The notes under the pieces were generated by a model. The model made no database searches. It was not told the DNA's origin and saw only the letters and a list, made by a program, of their open reading frames with translations. 64,000 nt of DNA from Candidatus Limnocylindrales bacterium. GTDB lineage: Bacteria; Chloroflexota; Limnocylindria; Limnocylindrales; CSP1-4. Of this stretch, positions 5,794 through 34,164 are shown in pieces (the first letter of the stretch is position 1; each line of letters begins with the position of its first letter). Location: positions 52,598 through 116,597 of the forward strand of contig DATGGQ010000030.1 of the NCBI GenBank assembly GCA_035308445.1. The letters are read 5' to 3'. Both the position numbers and the translations under genes were made by a program.

Positions 5794-7212
5794 ATGACCA
5801 CACCGCTCGTCCACCCACGCCGCCGCCCGTCGCGCCTCGGGCTCGGTATCGCCCTGCTCGCCATCGCCGCCCCCGTCGGCGGCTTCGTGCTCGTGAAGGC
5901 CGTCTCGGCCCAGCCGATCCGGATCGGCGCCGTGTTCCCGATCACCGGCAACGCCCGGGCGCTGGCCGTGCCCGAGCTGACCGGCGTCCGCATCGCGGTC
6001 GACATGGTGAACGCCGACGGCGGCATCGATGGCCGGCCCGTGGTCCTCGACGTCCGCGACCTCGAGAGCCGGGCCGACGCCGACGGGATCATGGCCGGCT
6101 TCGCCCGGGACGGCATCCGGCTCGTCATCGGCGCCTATTCGTCGGACCTGTCCATCGCCGCGAGCGCGGCGGCCGACAAGGCCGGGCTGCTCTACTGGGA
6201 ATCCGGCGCCGTGGCGGACCAGCTGACCGGCCGCGGGCTGCCCCTCGTGTTCCGAGTCGGGGCGAGTGGCACGAACCTTGGCTCCAACTCGGCGACGTTC
6301 GTCGCGACCCAGCTGGCGAGCCGGCTCGGCAAGGCGGTCGGCCAGACGCGGGTGGCGATCGTCAACGCGAACGACGCCTACGCGACGTCCGTCGCCGACG
6401 CGGCCGCGTCCACGGCAACGACGGCGGGCCTCGACGTGGTCGCCCAGGCGACCTACGACCTCGGGATGCCGGACTGGACTGGGCTGATGGACCAGCTGAA
6501 GGCGGCGCGCCCCGACGCGATCATCCTCGCCTCCCACATCCCCGATGGGGTCGCCTTCCGGCAGGCGATGCTGGCGTCGGGCCTCAGGGTCGGGGCTCTG
6601 ATCGGCTCGACGATGGCCGAGTGCGACCCGGACTTCGCCGGCGATCTCGGGGCTGATGCGATCGGCATCTTCGCCTCCGATCGACCGACGGCCGGGTTCC
6701 GGCCCGATGCGCTCGATCCGACGGCGAAGGCGGCGTACGACCGCTTCTCGGCGGCGTGGGCGGCGGCCACGGCCGCTTCGGCGGCGCCCACGGCGGCGTC
6801 GGCGGCCTCGGGGGCCCCGGCGTGGGGCAGCGGCGACCCGGCGTGGGGCAGCGGCGAGCCGTACACCTTGATCGGGCCGGCCGAATCGCCGACCGCGGAG
6901 GCCTCGGAAGAGGCCCTTGCCGGGTTCTCGGCGGCGTGGGCCTTGTTCACGGACGTCCTGCCGGCGGCGGCGAGCACCTCGCCGGGCCTCGATCCCGCGG
7001 CCGTGGCCTCGGTTGCCCGAGCGGTGGACCTGCCGACCGGCGCGCTGCCGAACGGCGCCGGCCTCCGGTTCTCGACGGACGAAGCGACGCTCGGCCAGAA
7101 CCTGCGGGCGGCCGCGGTGATCTGGCAGTGGCAGGCCGTCCGCCAGTACGCGTTCGTCTGGCCGCCGTCGTACGCGACCGGCGCCATCGCCTTCGTGCCG
7201 CTCGGCCGATGA
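5794..7212 (+). CDS. Periplasmic solute-binding protein, type-1 (LivJ / branched-chain amino-acid ABC-type family), orphan
   Basis: AGGAG RBS 6 nt before ATG 5794. Signal/TM anchor (LGLGIALLAIAAPVGGFVLV), then IRIGAVFPITGN...VIGAYSSDLSIAA, typical of the Leu/Ile/Val-binding fold. Low-complexity insert APAWGSGDPAWGSGEP. No permease or ATPase genes adjacent. Confidence 0.75.
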   Translation: MTTPLVHPRRRPSRLGLGIALLAIAAPVGGFVLVKAVSAQPIRIGAVFPITGNARALAVPELTGVRIAVDMVNADGGIDGRPVVLDVRDLESRADADGIMAGFARDGIRLVIGAYSSDLSIAASAAADKAGLLYWESGAVADQLTGRGLPLVFRVGASGTNLGSNSATFVATQLASRLGKAVGQTRVAIVNANDAYATSVADAAASTATTAGLDVVAQATYDLGMPDWTGLMDQLKAARPDAIILASHIPDGVAFRQAMLASGLRVGALIGSTMAECDPDFAGDLGADAIGIFASDRPTAGFRPDALDPTAKAAYDRFSAAWAAATAASAAPTAASAASGAPAWGSGDPAWGSGEPYTLIGPAESPTAEASEEALAGFSAAWALFTDVLPAAASTSPGLDPAAVASVARAVDLPTGALPNGAGLRFSTDEATLGQNLRAAAVIWQWQAVRQYAFVWPPSYATGAIAFVPLGR

Positions 7213-7895
7213 TCGCGGGGCGGACGGCCCGGCGATCGGAGAGGGCGGCGCTCGGCGCGGACAGCGCGACGCGAGGCGCTGAGGCGGCGGCGCTCGGCGG
7301 GGGTCGCCTCGCCGGTCATCCCGTGGCGGCTCGATGGCTTCGGCCGGCGGGGCTGCTCGCCGGCCTCGCGATCGTCATCGGGGCACGCTGGGCGGCGACG
7401 GTCGACGGCCTCGACGCGATCGGCGTCGGCGTGCTGTTCGGCGCCGCCCTGGTCTGGGTCGCGGTCGTCGGCAGCCAGGGCACGGTGGCGTTCCGCCGTC
7501 CGCGGGTCGCCGAGGTCGTCTACGGGGTTGTCGGCGGCACGGCGCTCATCGCGATCGCCGTCGTCGCGAGCTCATCGGTGCCGCGGCCGATCGGCGAGCC
7601 GGCGCCCTCGTTCGCTCCGTGGGCGGCGGTGACGCTGCTCGTGGCCGGGGCCGAGGAGCTCCTGCTCCGAGGCGTGCTCTTCCGAGCCGTCGAGCGCGCG
7701 GGCGGCGTTGTTGCGGCGGTCGCGGTCACGAGCATCGCCTTCGCCGTCATGCACGTCCCGCTGTACGGCTGGCACGTCGTGCCGCTCGACCTGGGGGTCG
7801 GGATCTTCCTCGGTGGCCTGCGGCTGGCCGGCGGCGGCTGGCTCGGCCCGGCCATCGCCCATGCGATCGCCGACCTCGCGACCTGGTGGCTGTGA
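7209..7895 (+). CDS. CPBP family intramembrane metalloprotease (CAAX protease-like)
   Basis: ATGA overlap with the solute-binding protein stop. Motifs EELLLRGVLF and FAVMH...H (the EExxxR / FxxxH pair of CPBP/Abi proteases). The true start may lie further downstream. Confidence 0.6.
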   Translation: MIAGRTARRSERAALGADSATRGAEAAALGGGRLAGHPVAARWLRPAGLLAGLAIVIGARWAATVDGLDAIGVGVLFGAALVWVAVVGSQGTVAFRRPRVAEVVYGVVGGTALIAIAVVASSSVPRPIGEPAPSFAPWAAVTLLVAGAEELLLRGVLFRAVERAGGVVAAVAVTSIAFAVMHVPLYGWHVVPLDLGVGIFLGGLRLAGGGWLGPAIAHAIADLATWWL

Positions 7896-32138: not shown

Positions 32139-32209
32139 CCCGCGGAGCGCCGGGGATCGCGGAGCGCCGGGATCGCGTCCGGTCGCGGACGCGGGAAACA
32201 GGGGGAGCT

Positions 32210-32671
32210 ATGAACGTTGCGACCGAGCAGCCGACCGTCAAGCAGCTCATCGCCACCATGGACGACGCCTGGGCGCCGTTCCACGACGCCGTCCGGGCCC
32301 TCCCGGCCCAGCTCCTCGAGCAGCGGCTCGGCGAGAACGGCTGGACGCGGAAGCAGATGCTGGCCCACGTCGCCGCCTGGCACGACATCACGGTCGAGCG
32401 CCTCAGCGGATTTCATGAGACCGGCGAGCCGGCCCCGTTCCTCGAGGACGAGGACGCTGTGAATGCCCGTGCTGCTCGAGGTGCCGAAGGCCGGACGACC
32501 GGCGAGGTCCTCCTGACCCTCGACGAGTCGTTCCGCCGCCTCCGCCGCGAGGTCGCCCGGCTCAGCAACGAGGACGCGGTCGCGTTCGACGCCTGGGCGG
32601 CCCGCATGATCGCGGGCAACTCGTTCGGCCACTACGGCGAGCACCTGTCCGACCTCATCGTCCGCCGTTAA
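32210..32671 (+). CDS. DinB_2/ClbS-like (DUF1706-type) protein
   Basis: GGGGGAG just upstream of the ATG. Motif MLAHVAAWHD. 153 aa. Paralog of 23917..24396. Confidence 0.6.
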   Translation: MNVATEQPTVKQLIATMDDAWAPFHDAVRALPAQLLEQRLGENGWTRKQMLAHVAAWHDITVERLSGFHETGEPAPFLEDEDAVNARAARGAEGRTTGEVLLTLDESFRRLRREVARLSNEDAVAFDAWAARMIAGNSFGHYGEHLSDLIVRR

Positions 32672-32683
32672 TACAGGCACGGC

Positions 32684-33030
32684 CGCCGGCGCGAGCACGT
32701 CCGGCGACGGGAGCACGGTCTGCCGACGGGAGCACGGTCTGCCGGCGCGAGCACGTCCGCCGGCGCGAGCACGTCCGCCGGCGCGAGCACGTCCGCCGCT
32801 CGGGCACGTCCGGCGACGGGAGCACGGTCTGCCGTTCGAGCACGTCCGCCGGCGCGAGCACGTCCGCCGGCGCGAGCACGTCCGCCGTTCGAGCACGTCC
32901 GCCGCTCGAGCACGTCCGCCGTTCGAGCACGTCCGCCGGCGCGAGCACGTCCGGCGACGGGAGCACGGTCTGCCGTCGCCGGCTCGGGCACGGTCGCCCG
33001 ACTCTGGGACGTCGCCGGCTCGGGCACGCG
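32684..33030. repeat. Spacer-less tandem repeat array, ~17 copies of a 17-19-bp unit (two unit types)
   Basis: Direct read of the sequence: unit A GAGCACGTCCGCCGGCGC and unit B GAGCACGGTCTGCCG(A/T)CGG are interleaved with no unique spacers. Unit length varies, so no reading frame is maintained. Confidence 0.85.
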
Positions 33031-33262
33031 CCATCGGATGGTGGCACCCGGGGCCGTCCGCCTCGGGCGGTCGCCGTCGACCGCTATCGGCGGTCATGAG
33101 ACGTGGGCACGCGTCATCGGACGGTGGCAGCCGGCGCCGCGGCCCTCGCTCGCCCAGGTTCGACTCGCATCCGCTGTCCGATGACGCGCTGGCGAGCCAA
33201 TACGCGGTTGTTGGTCGGTTACGAGACTCCTGCGGCCACGCGGTCAGCTCAGGAGTCCCTTG

Positions 33263-33565
33263 ATGTCGCGTTTGCCTGTCAGGGGGATCGAGCACGGGCG
33301 GAACGTGGTCGGCAGGCGGATCGAGCACGGGCGGAACGTGGTCGGCAGACGGATCGAGCGCGAGCGGAAGGTGGTCGGCAAGGCGAGGCGAGCGCTTGGC
33401 GAGGGTGTTCGTAAGCCGCACGTGAGCTCCAGCCAATCGGCATCGGTCATGCTCGGACCGTGCCGGTTCGGGACTCGATCGCCGCGCGCGGAGAGCGACG
33501 CAGTCGCCTCCTCAGGCTCCGTGCCGCAGAAGAGCTCGTCGCTGCCCGTCAGGCGGCAGGTCTGA
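33263..33565 (+). CDS. Candidate small ORF spanning the 33-bp iterons; may be non-coding
   Basis: AGGAG 7 nt upstream of ATG 33263. Translates the three iterons as 11-aa repeats GIEHGRNVVGRR. Overlaps the XRE gene start by ~105 bp in another frame. Codon usage after the repeats is poor. Confidence 0.25.
   Translation: MSRLPVRGIEHGRNVVGRRIEHGRNVVGRRIERERKVVGKARRALGEGVRKPHVSSSQSASVMLGPCRFGTRSPRAESDAVASSGSVPQKSSSLPVRRQV
33285..33383 (+). repeat. Three tandem 33-bp direct repeats (iteron-like) upstream of the XRE regulator gene
   Basis: GATCGAGCACGGGCGGAACGTGGTCGGCAGGCG x2 exact, then a diverged third copy GATCGAGCGCGAGCGGAAGGTGGTCGGCAAGGCG. Confidence 0.85.
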
Positions 33566-34107
33566 GCAGCCGCGAGGTCGCGCGCCGTGTCGGCGTGAGC
33601 CCGGACCGGATCCGCCGCGTCGAACGAGCGGAGGCCAGGTCGGCGACGATCGACCTCGTGGCGCGCGCAGCGATCGCGGTCGGGCTCGATCTCGCGCTGT
33701 CGCTCCACCCGAACGGAGATCCGGCTCGCGACCGCGGTCATCTGGCACTTCTCCGTCGCCTTCGCGCTCGAGTTGCAAGCGTGAGGTGGAGAACGGAGGT
33801 CCCGATCCCGATCGCAGGCGATCTGCGGAGCGCCGACGCCGTCGTGACGATCGCGGCGGGCGAGATCATGATCGAAGCCGAGACGCGCGTGAGCGACGTG
33901 CAGCTCGTGGAGCGGCGCTCGGCAGCCAAGGGCCGGGACCTCGGCGCGCTCCGCGTCGTCCTGCTGCTCGCCGACACCGCCCATCACTGGACGCTCCTTC
34001 GCCAGCACCCAGAGCTCCGGCAGCGCTACCCGATCGGGACCTGCGAGGTCCTGGCGGCGCTCCGGGCAGGACGCGACCCTGGTGGCGACGGCTTGGTCAT
34101 CCTCTGA
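33460..34107 (+). CDS. XRE-family helix-turn-helix transcriptional regulator with uncharacterised C-terminal domain
   Basis: HTH LSSREVARRVGVSPDRIRRVERAE. 215 aa. GTG start, with no alternative canonical start in frame. Confidence 0.6.
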   Translation: MPVRDSIAARGERRSRLLRLRAAEELVAARQAAGLSSREVARRVGVSPDRIRRVERAEARSATIDLVARAAIAVGLDLALSLHPNGDPARDRGHLALLRRLRARVASVRWRTEVPIPIAGDLRSADAVVTIAAGEIMIEAETRVSDVQLVERRSAAKGRDLGALRVVLLLADTAHHWTLLRQHPELRQRYPIGTCEVLAALRAGRDPGGDGLVIL

Positions 34108-34164
34108 CCGATACCTGCCACTGGCACGGATCGATGGGCTTCCCGGGGTGGCACAATCCCGCCG

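What the first reader, a model, noticed from the sequence alone, without database searches (positions are those of the whole stretch)
32672..33460. ~800-bp non-coding region packed with three different repeat families between a ClbS-like gene and an XRE regulator
The window is otherwise tightly packed, with typical gaps under 100 bp. This interval has no credible ORF. It contains (i) a spacer-less array of ~17 copies of a 17-19-bp unit in two interleaved variants (GAGCACGTCCGCCGGCGC and GAGCACGGTCTGCCGNCGG) at 32684-33030. (ii) An imperfect 27-bp direct repeat pair (CACGCGCCATCGGATGGTGGCACCCGG at ~33028, CACGCGTCATCGGACGGTGGCAGCCGG at ~33108). (iii) Three 33-bp iterons at 33285-33383. Because the unit length varies, the array cannot encode a repetitive protein; the six-frame ORFs crossing it (RTCSRRRTCS... 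and STSAGASTSAG...) are artefacts. Spacer-less minisatellite-like arrays of this size are uncommon in high-GC bacterial chromosomes. This one could be a VNTR locus that varies in copy number, a structured non-coding RNA, or a regulatory or recombination hot-spot.
Basis: seen in the sequence. Interest (0 to 1): 0.7.

Follow-up and report, generated by a model that had tools for sequence, protein, structure and literature searches.

The report
Lineage-specific intergenic minisatellite in a Limnocylindria MAG
The repeats are real: a non-coding stretch upstream of a regulator gene in an uncultured Chloroflexota bacterium has ballooned through several local tandem duplications. Nothing found here suggests it is more than an ordinary, fast-evolving bacterial minisatellite.

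Summary
Window 32672-33459 has no credible gene. It holds a spacer-less array of 17 units of 17-19 bp (32675-32979) plus 3 degenerate units to 33028, an 83-bp-period duplication, and a 33-bp triplet.

The source is a 'Candidatus Limnocylindrales' (Chloroflexota) metagenome-assembled genome. Relatives keep the gene order folE-DinB-[slot]-B12-binding-MeaB. Five of them carry the same XRE gene in the slot, each with a long upstream gap of 305-431 bp where both flanks are assembled (>=347 bp in L130, whose contig starts inside the gap).

None has the 18-bp array. Only the closest (83% XRE identity) aligns in the gap, and it has one copy each of the 27-bp element and the 33-bp unit. Two relatives show 2-copy duplications of 16-19 bp at the DinB-proximal end.

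The unit was found nowhere else as non-coding DNA. The array folds worse than shuffled sequence, and Rfam gives nothing. No motif is shared among the orthologous upstream regions.

Best reading: a lineage-specific minisatellite grown by slippage and unequal exchange, probably seeded at the hairpin after DinB. Copy-number variation could not be tested.

Side finding: the 'XRE regulator' is an HTH fused to a PD-(D/E)xK nuclease-fold domain, and it is mis-split in the public annotation.

The parts
32210..32671 (+). Left flank: DinB_2/DUF1706 (ClbS-like) gene, 153 aa. Its stop codon lies 3-6 nt before the first repeat unit.
   Evidence: Pfam DinB_2 4.3e-9 and DUF1706 4.6e-6. 100% identical to NCBI HLX35160.1 'DinB family protein [Candidatus Limnocylindrales bacterium]'.
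32675..32979 (+). Spacer-less array of 17 units (17-19 bp), consensus GAGCAC(G)GTCCGCCGGCGC. There are three unit types: A (..TCCGCCG + GCGC/CTC/TTC), B (..TCCGGCGACGG) and C (..GGTCTGCCG..). They are ordered A B C C A A A | B C A A A A A A | B C. The A-type unit contains the 8-bp palindrome CGCCGGCG.
   Evidence: TRF period 18 x16.9 and period 89 x3.3. Unit table and alignment: the first ~14 positions are near-invariant, and the last 5 positions plus 2 indel columns vary. Palindrome count.
32951..32982 (+). Perfect 10-bp-stem hairpin CCGGCGACGG-(12 nt)-CCGTCGCCGG formed by the last B+C unit pair, with no T-run after it. It is the likely ancestral post-DinB hairpin from which the units were copied (inference).
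   Evidence: DNA fold -17.1 kcal/mol, z -3.75, 0 of 200 shuffles as good. The earlier B+C pairs are degenerate versions with z about 0. Relatives L131 and L134 have GC hairpins directly after the DinB stop (read).
32975..33028 (+). Degenerate tail of the array: three ~17-bp units (GTCGCCGGCTCGGGCACG).
   Evidence: TRF period 17 x3.0, 73% matches.
33022..33178 (+). 83-bp-period direct duplication (33022-33095 / 33105-33178, 70% identity). Each copy starts with the 27-bp element CACGCG(C/T)CATCGGA(T/C)GGTGGCA(C/G)CCGG (33025-33051, 33108-33134). The second copy is the ancestral one.
   Evidence: the repeat finder D4. L130 has one copy (GCGCGTCATCGCACGGTGGCATCCGG), aligned to the window's second copy as the best-conserved block of the gap.
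33110..33188 (.). Inverted repeat CGCGTCATCGGACGGTGG / CCGCTGTCCGATGACGCG (18 nt, 89% complementary, 43 nt apart). It is a candidate operator pair or hairpin (inference only).
   Evidence: the repeat finder I2.
33280..33385 (+). 33-bp unit x3.2 (CAGGCGGATCGAGCACGGGCGGAACGTGGTCGG), ending 75 bp before the XRE start codon.
   Evidence: TRF and D5. Two of the copies are an insertion relative to L130.
33386..33459 (+). Promoter-proximal segment conserved with L130 (..GTGAGC.CCAGCCAA..), immediately upstream of the XRE start.
   Evidence: Alignment A1. The window's GTG start at 33460 aligns with the ATG in L130.
33460..34107 (+). Right flank: a 215-aa protein with an XRE HTH (aa 23-80) and a C-terminal PD-(D/E)xK-fold domain. 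This is a real single gene that public annotation mis-splits.

Best explanation
The interval is the long, fast-evolving upstream region of a resident XRE-HTH/PD-(D/E)xK gene. In this lineage it roughly doubled in length through at least three independent local tandem duplications. The largest product is a non-coding minisatellite of about 20 units of 17-19 bp.

Proposed mechanism (inferred, not shown):
- The array grew in place by slipped-strand mispairing and unequal exchange.
- It started from the GC-rich hairpin that follows the DinB stop codon.
- The B and C unit types are copies of the hairpin's left arm and of its loop plus right-arm start.
- The A-type unit carries an 8-bp palindrome (CGCCGGCG) that would favour misaligned pairing.
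- Blocks of about five units (89 bp) were then re-duplicated.

I think the array has no sequence-specific function. At most it lengthens the DinB 3' region and moves the DinB end further from the XRE promoter region. It should behave as a copy-number-variable (VNTR) locus.
For: Shown:
1. The locus is chromosomal and syntenic. The order folE-DinB-[slot]-B12-binding-MeaB is kept in nine related contigs. Five have the XRE gene in the slot. The upstream gap is 305-431 bp in the four where both flanks are assembled, and at least 347 bp in L130, whose contig starts inside the gap. The window's gap is 788 bp.
2. None of the relatives' gaps holds the array or even the G[AG]GCACG core.
3. The window aligns only with the closest relative, L130. 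That alignment shows the array, one copy of the 83-bp unit and two copies of the 33-bp unit as extra DNA in the window.
4. Small duplications recur at the same end of the gap. L134 has 16 bp x2.2 at 100% identity starting 69 bp after the DinB stop. L130's contig begins inside a 19-bp x2 repeat.
5. The layout is a higher-order 89-bp period with mixed unit lengths and unit types shared in blocks, as expected from unequal exchange.
6. Only the last B+C pair forms a significant hairpin (z -3.75); the earlier pairs are degenerate.
7. No function-type signal was found: no Pfam hit, no Rfam hit, array folding weaker than shuffles, no promoter or terminator consensus, and no motif shared among orthologous gaps beyond shuffles.
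8. The unit is not dispersed. There is no other copy in the window. The only matches in JGI metagenomes are in-frame Ser/Thr-rich linker codons of unrelated proteins. There are none in viral contigs. The only plasmid-collection match examined, in Burkholderia, is a coding PEVPDV repeat.
9. The assembly is self-consistent. The longest exact internal repeat is 51 bp and no k-mer of 55 or more is repeated. A k=31 Logan contig of the same sequence ends at 32712, exactly where the first repeated 30-mer ends.

Background: slippage as the main driver of bacterial VNTR change is stated in PMC10174486.
Against: - Copy-number polymorphism, the defining behaviour of a VNTR, was not observed. All retrievable records are the same sequence.
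- The first ~14 positions of the unit are almost invariant while variation sits in the last 5. The same 7-bp core recurs in the 33-bp repeats and at the head of the 27-bp element. This could reflect a bound site rather than recent homogenisation.
- 'No function' is an argument from absence. Expression and binding were not testable.
- The origin from the hairpin is a reconstruction from one genome.
- The whole sequence comes from short-read metagenome assemblies.
Confidence: 0.6

Rival explanations
1. The units are protein-binding sites. The array, the 27-bp elements and the 33-bp repeats would together form an extended operator, decoy or nucleation platform for the adjacent XRE-HTH/PD-(D/E)xK protein or another DNA-binding protein. 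Copy number would then tune regulator occupancy or expression.
For: The core G(A/G)GCACG is shared by all three repeat families. Half of all plus-strand copies in the window lie in this interval. The 5' two-thirds of the unit is nearly invariant. The 33-bp repeats are spaced about 3 helical turns apart, 75-180 bp upstream of an HTH gene. The 27-bp element is the best-conserved block shared with L130, and it has an inverted partner.
Against: The core is absent from the upstream gaps of all five orthologues, although their HTH proteins are 65-83% identical. No k-mer is shared among those gaps beyond shuffles. Successive units fall at all helical phases, because the 17-19-bp spacing is not a multiple of 10.5 bp. 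The array lies more than 430 bp from the start codon, beyond the conserved part of the gap. Near-invariance is equally expected from recent duplication.
Confidence: 0.15
2. The array is part of the DinB 3' UTR and acts as an RNA element, either a terminator or a 3'-end stabiliser built from stacked hairpins in the manner of REP/BIME elements.
For: The array begins 3-6 nt after the DinB stop. It ends in a perfect 10-bp GC hairpin (z -3.75). Relatives have GC hairpins directly after the stop. The A-type unit contains an 8-bp palindrome.
Against: The array as a whole folds worse than shuffles on both strands. Individual A-A and early B-C junction hairpins are not better than shuffles. There is no T-tract terminator and no Rfam match. 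The unit is not dispersed as REPs are. One hairpin would suffice, so about 280 bp of extra units needs no functional explanation.
Confidence: 0.1
3. The array is the decayed remnant of a coding repeat, that is, a pseudogene of a protein with an S-T-S-A-G-A-type low-complexity linker.
For: The identical nucleotide motif AGCACGTCCG(C/G)CG encodes STSG/STSA linkers in three unrelated proteins found in metagenomes. One of them varies between 2 and 5 copies. All six frames are open across the array.
Against: No relative has a gene at that position between DinB and XRE. The flanks show no residual coding signal and no Pfam match. Six of the 17 units are 17 or 19 bp, scattered along the array. That would need many independent frameshifts while the sequence stayed about 85-100% conserved.
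Confidence: 0.04
4. The array, or its length, is an artefact of short-read metagenome assembly.
For: The source is a MEGAHIT-style k141 metagenome contig. A second contig breaks at the array. No long-read confirmation was available. The JGI metagenome scan did not return this array.
Against: No k-mer of 55 or more is repeated inside the interval, so a k=141 path is unambiguous. The Logan break falls exactly at the first repeated 30-mer, as expected for a real array in a k=31 graph. The proteins on both sides are recorded together on contigs of 182, 315 and 384 kb, so several assemblies run through the interval. Assemblers collapse tandem repeats rather than invent 17 diverged units.
Confidence: 0.08

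Closest known systems
Bacterial intergenic minisatellites / VNTR loci, as used for MLVA typing (e.g. Xanthomonas minisatellites, PMC10174486; mycobacterial MIRU-VNTR, from my own knowledge)
   Same: Head-to-tail repeats with units of 10 bp or more in a GC-rich chromosome. Locus-specific, non-coding, with imperfect copies. Change is attributed to replication slippage and recombination.
   Different: Copy-number polymorphism has not been demonstrated here. About 20 copies with a higher-order 89-bp period is at the large end for bacteria. The organism is an uncultured Chloroflexota (Limnocylindria), for which no such locus turned up in the paper library.
REP/BIME extragenic palindromic repeats
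   Same: Extragenic and GC-rich. Contains a palindrome, sits just after a stop codon, and ends in a stable hairpin.
   Different: REPs are dispersed in hundreds of copies and clustered in alternating orientation. This unit is strictly direct, confined to one locus, and overall not better folded than shuffles.
Plasmid/phage iteron or centromere arrays (e.g. F sopC, R1 parC, oriV iterons; from my own knowledge)
   Same: Contiguous direct repeats of 11-43 bp without spacers, next to a DNA-binding-protein gene.
   Different: There is no rep or par gene. The setting is a conserved chromosomal neighbourhood. The repeats are absent from orthologous loci. No match was found in the plasmid or viral collections.
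CRISPR arrays
   Same: Short direct repeats in a non-coding interval.
   Different: There are no spacers at all, the units are 17-19 bp, and no cas gene is among the neighbours.

Membership tests
Bacterial minisatellite / VNTR locus | Head-to-tail tandem copies of a unit of 10 bp or more | tested here: met
   TRF period 18 x16.9, score 353. 17 regular units plus 3 degenerate ones.
Bacterial minisatellite / VNTR locus | Confined to one locus, not a dispersed element | tested here: met
   No other copy in the 64-kb window. JGI metagenome, viral and plasmid scans returned only unrelated coding repeats or nothing. The rest of the source genome was not available.
Bacterial minisatellite / VNTR locus | Copy number differs between strains | not testable with these tools
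   All retrievable records are the same sequence. The closest relative's contig ends at the homologous position.
Repetitive protein-coding sequence | Constant unit length divisible by 3 within one open frame, with coding composition | tested here: not met
   Units of 17, 18 and 19 bp are intermixed. No Pfam match. No gene at this position in relatives.
Structured non-coding RNA (Rfam family or novel) | Match to a covariance model, or folding better than composition predicts, or conservation or covariation in relatives | tested here: not met
   Rfam gathering threshold gives none. At the E-value threshold the best hit is E 1.6 (mir-1292, 20 bits against a gathering score of 90). z is +2.3 and +2.1. 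No homologous array exists in relatives, so covariation cannot be tested.
CRISPR array | Repeats separated by unique spacers of similar length, usually with cas genes nearby | tested here: not met
   Units abut without spacers. The neighbouring genes are folE, DinB, XRE, B12-binding and MeaB.
REP/BIME | Many dispersed copies of an imperfect palindrome across the genome | tested here: not met
   One locus only within 64 kb. Hairpins formed by unit junctions are not better than shuffles, except the last one.
Replication iterons / partition centromere | Adjacent rep or par gene and a mobile-replicon context | tested here: not met
   The neighbourhood is syntenic housekeeping DNA. The XRE protein has no plasmid or viral relatives in the collections searched.

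The most novel reading that the evidence does not exclude
The neighbouring protein is an HTH fused to a PD-(D/E)xK nuclease-fold domain with its acidic motif residues invariant. It might recognise the GAGCACG-containing units and the 27-bp element and nick or cut nearby. Repeated break repair would then make its own upstream region a self-inflicted duplication hot-spot. This could account for four separate tandem duplications within 1.3 kb, and for small duplications at the same place in two relatives that also carry the gene. That would be a regulator-nuclease that generates a variable array of its own binding sites.
Probability: 0.06. Interest if true: 0.65.

Novelty: new member of a known kind. 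Interest (0 to 1): 0.22.

Why it matters
If the main reading holds, this matters little. It is one more bacterial minisatellite, of use mainly as a strain marker for an uncultured Limnocylindria population and as a warning that the locus breaks short-k assemblies.

Two by-products are more useful.

1. The public annotation of this MAG splits a conserved 215-aa gene into a spurious antisense 165-aa ORF and a 108-aa fragment.
2. That gene defines a widespread Chloroflexota family that joins an XRE HTH to a restriction-endonuclease-like domain, sitting in a variable slot between DinB and the B12-binding/MeaB genes.

The locus would become interesting only if the protein turned out to bind or cut the repeats.

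Tried and rejected
1. Genome-contig scan with the loose pattern GAGCACG-N10-12-GAGCACG-N10-12-GAGCACG. None carries the full unit more than twice, and most have 18-bp spacing, so they are probably coding repeats. The pattern was badly chosen.
2. Metagenome scan with two full units. It gave 4 hits, all in-frame STSG/STSA linkers of unrelated proteins: an oxidoreductase-like ORF, a secreted protein, and a DnaK-like C-terminus next to groES.
3. Viral-contig scans for the unit, the 27-bp element, the 33-bp unit and the XRE family. All were empty.
4. Plasmid collection. The protein has no match. The only DNA match examined, in Burkholderia, is a coding PEVPDV x44 repeat; the second, weaker match (Nonomuraea) was not looked at.
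5. The idea that the 141-aa gene filling the slot in L003 and L004 has a remnant in the window. tblastn found nothing.
6. A small upstream ORF over the 33-bp repeats (plus frame from 33260, GIEHGRNVVGRR x3), suggested by GC3 periodicity. Rejected: the periodicity follows from a 33-bp unit, L130 lacks two of the copies, and substitutions against L130 are not concentrated at third positions.
7. The minus-strand 165-aa ORF called in public annotation. Rejected in favour of the plus-strand XRE gene.
8. A conserved operator motif among the six orthologous upstream regions. Nothing exceeded shuffles.
9. A crude GC3-based gene map to list all gaps in the window. It was too strict to be useful.
10. 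Retrieving a second strain through the cluster member P0243. It proved to be the same protein with V in place of M at the start, and the look-up failed.

Full report
**1. What is in the sequence**

The window has 72.6% G+C. Between the stop codon of a DinB_2/DUF1706 gene (32210-32671, plus strand; Pfam 4.3e-9) and the start of an XRE-type HTH gene (33460-34107, plus strand; HTH_31 1.6e-7) lie 788 bp without a credible gene.

Tandem Repeats Finder reports the following:
- 32677-32979: period 18, 16.9 copies, 83% matches, score 353.
- The same stretch as period 89 x3.3, score 429.
- 32975-33028: period 17 x3.0.
- 33280-33385: period 33 x3.2, 90% matches.

No other tandem repeat in the 64-kb window scores above 89. 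Outside this neighbourhood nearly all have periods divisible by three.

Cutting the array at the GAGCACG anchor gives 17 regular units of 17, 18 or 19 bp, followed by three degenerate ones. The first ~14 positions are nearly invariant. Variation and indels sit in the last five positions.

Three unit types occur, in the order A B C C A A A | B C A A A A A A | B C. This is a higher-order structure.

All three repeat families share the core G(A/G)GCACG. 17 of the 34 plus-strand copies of GAGCACG in the window lie in this interval, and none of the 20 minus-strand copies does.

**2. Coding potential**

None of the ORFs crossing the interval has a Pfam match. The mixture of unit lengths moves any reading frame every few units. 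The codon-position GC pattern typical of this genome disappears between about 32700 and 33240.

The 33-bp repeats mimic a coding periodicity, but this follows from a unit length divisible by three. The frame is not conserved in the closest relative.

**3. Source and assembly**

The window is 100% identical over 12.5 kb to ENA metagenome contig ERZ27279685 k141_25529, which is 182 kb long. The DinB protein equals NCBI HLX35160.1 from a 'Candidatus Limnocylindrales bacterium' MAG.

A Logan contig (k=31) from SRR5579862 is identical but stops at 32712. That is exactly the end of the first 30-mer that recurs in the array (32683-32712 = 32933-32962). This is what a de Bruijn graph does at a real repeat.

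The longest exact internal repeat is 51 bp, and no k-mer of 55 or more recurs, so a k=141 path through the array is unambiguous. The proteins on both sides are recorded on contigs of 182, 315 and 384 kb.

I could not establish whether these assemblies rest on independent reads. No second strain was retrievable.

**4. Comparison with relatives**

DinB homologues (54-71% identity) and XRE homologues (52-83%) come from Chloroflexota metagenomes. Nine related contigs keep the order folE-DinB-[slot]-B12-binding-MeaB.

The slot varies between relatives:

| Slot content | Locus |
|---|---|
| Empty (20-bp gap) | L005 |
| 141-aa minus-strand gene | L003, L004 |
| 158-aa gene | L135 |
| XRE gene | L130, L131, L132, L133, L134 |

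So the XRE gene is a resident of this neighbourhood and not part of an insertion. Its full-length reading (215 aa) is backed by more than 100 homologues of about 216 aa. The window's GTG start aligns with an ATG in L130.

In every relative with the XRE gene the upstream gap is long. It measures 305, 357, 431 and 360 bp in L131 to L134, and at least 347 bp in L130, whose contig starts inside the gap. The sequence of these gaps is poorly conserved: mean column identity is 51%, and no shared k-mers exceed shuffles.

Only L130 (83% protein identity) aligns with the window. Window 33100-33280 and 33386-33459 correspond to L130 40-347. The 18-bp array, the first copy of the 83-bp unit and two copies of the 33-bp unit have no counterpart in L130.

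None of the relatives' gaps contains the G[AG]GCACG core on the plus strand. Two relatives show small duplications at the DinB-proximal end. L134 has 16 bp x2.2 at 100% identity, and L130's contig begins within a 19-bp x2 repeat. A contig starting inside a repeat is what an assembly break at a larger array would look like.

**5. Tests of function-type hypotheses**

- *RNA structure.* The array folds worse than dinucleotide shuffles on both strands (z +2.3 and +2.1). Rfam returns only two tRNAs elsewhere in the window at gathering threshold, and chance-level hits at E up to 10.
- *Promoters and terminators.* No consensus site was found. That scan covers only sigma-70-type promoters and T-tract terminators.
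- *Local hairpins.* Only the last B+C pair forms a significant one (32951-32982, perfect 10-bp stem, -17.1 kcal/mol, z -3.75). The A-A junctions and earlier B-C pairs do not differ from shuffles.
- *Dispersal.* No other copy is in the window. A two-unit pattern found four places in JGI metagenomes, all in-frame Ser/Thr-rich linkers of unrelated proteins. Viral contigs gave nothing. The plasmid collection gave two weak matches; the one examined, in Burkholderia, is a coding repeat.
- *Genome scan.* My scan of the genome collection used too loose a pattern and was uninformative.

**6. Interpretation**

The simplest account is that a long, weakly constrained upstream region of the XRE gene expanded in this lineage by several independent tandem duplications. 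The largest produced a minisatellite.

The unit types suggest where it came from. B carries the left arm, and C the loop and the start of the right arm, of the terminal hairpin. Relatives have GC hairpins immediately after the DinB stop (read). The array probably grew between the stop codon and an ancestral post-DinB hairpin, by slippage and then by unequal exchange of blocks of about five units. The palindrome CGCCGGCG in the A-type unit would favour misalignment. This is inference from one genome, not a demonstration.

Replication slippage as the main driver of bacterial VNTR change, and the routine existence of minisatellite loci in GC-rich Xanthomonas, are documented in PMC10174486.

The main rival is that the units are binding sites for the neighbouring regulator. 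It rests on the shared core and the invariant 5' part of the unit. It is weakened by the absence of the core in all orthologous gaps and by the variable helical phase of the units.

**7. The neighbouring protein (side finding)**

D121, D126, E139, E141, Q148 and K157 are invariant in the family alignment. Sequence searches alone gave only a weak NucC hit (E 0.05).

Public gene calls split this gene into a spurious antisense 165-aa ORF (33244-33741) and a 108-aa fragment.

An HTH-nuclease-fold protein next to a duplication-rich region invites the speculation that it causes the duplications. I rate this at about 6%.

**8. Verdict**

This is a real feature and an ordinary kind: a new member of the bacterial intergenic minisatellites, in an uncultured Chloroflexota lineage. 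Copy-number variation and any function remain untested. Interest is low.

Noticed in passing
window 33244-34107: Public annotation (NCBI HLX35161.1/HLX35162.1, and the ENA gene calls) splits the 215-aa plus-strand XRE gene into a spurious minus-strand 165-aa 'hypothetical protein' (33244-33741) and a 108-aa C-terminal fragment (33781-34107). More than 100 full-length homologues show the single plus-strand ORF 33460-34107 is correct.
   Followed up: yes
[not shown]
   Followed up: partly
window 32672-34164, compared with L003, L004, L005, L130-L135: The slot between DinB and the B12-binding/MeaB genes is a gene-content hot-spot among Limnocylindria relatives. It may be empty, or hold a 141-aa gene, a 158-aa gene or the XRE-nuclease-fold gene, sometimes with an acetyltransferase or an O-methyltransferase as well.
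   Followed up: partly
window 34149-34159; L003 2197-2207 and 3238-3248; L004 5913-5923; L005 5464-5474; L135 3067-3077: The 11-mer TGGCACAATCC lies 5-6 nt before the ATG of the B12-binding-domain gene in the window and four relatives. In L003 it also lies before the methyltransferase gene. It looks like an extended -10 element placed for a leaderless or near-leaderless mRNA. It is not exact in the relatives L130-L134.
   Followed up: partly
window 32141-32177: A further small tandem duplication (17 bp x2.2, 95% matches, CGCGGAGCGCCGGGGAT) sits in the folE-DinB gap. It is the fourth separate non-coding duplication within 1.3 kb.
   Followed up: no
L126 3000-3060 (minus strand) and L128 84-185: Two JGI metagenome contigs carry what appears to be the same oxidoreductase-like ORF, with 2 versus 5 copies of an 18-bp AASTSG-encoding repeat. 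This is a coding VNTR in an unrelated high-GC organism.
   Followed up: no
window 6749-7299: A cluster of 21-bp-period repeats (three TRF rows, scores 70-88), presumably a repetitive coding region. Not examined.
   Followed up: no
L130 1-38: The contig of the closest relative begins inside a 19-bp x2 repeat (GGGGCGCSGAGCTCCTCGG) at the position homologous to the end of the window's array. This may be the edge of its own unresolved minisatellite.
   Followed up: partly
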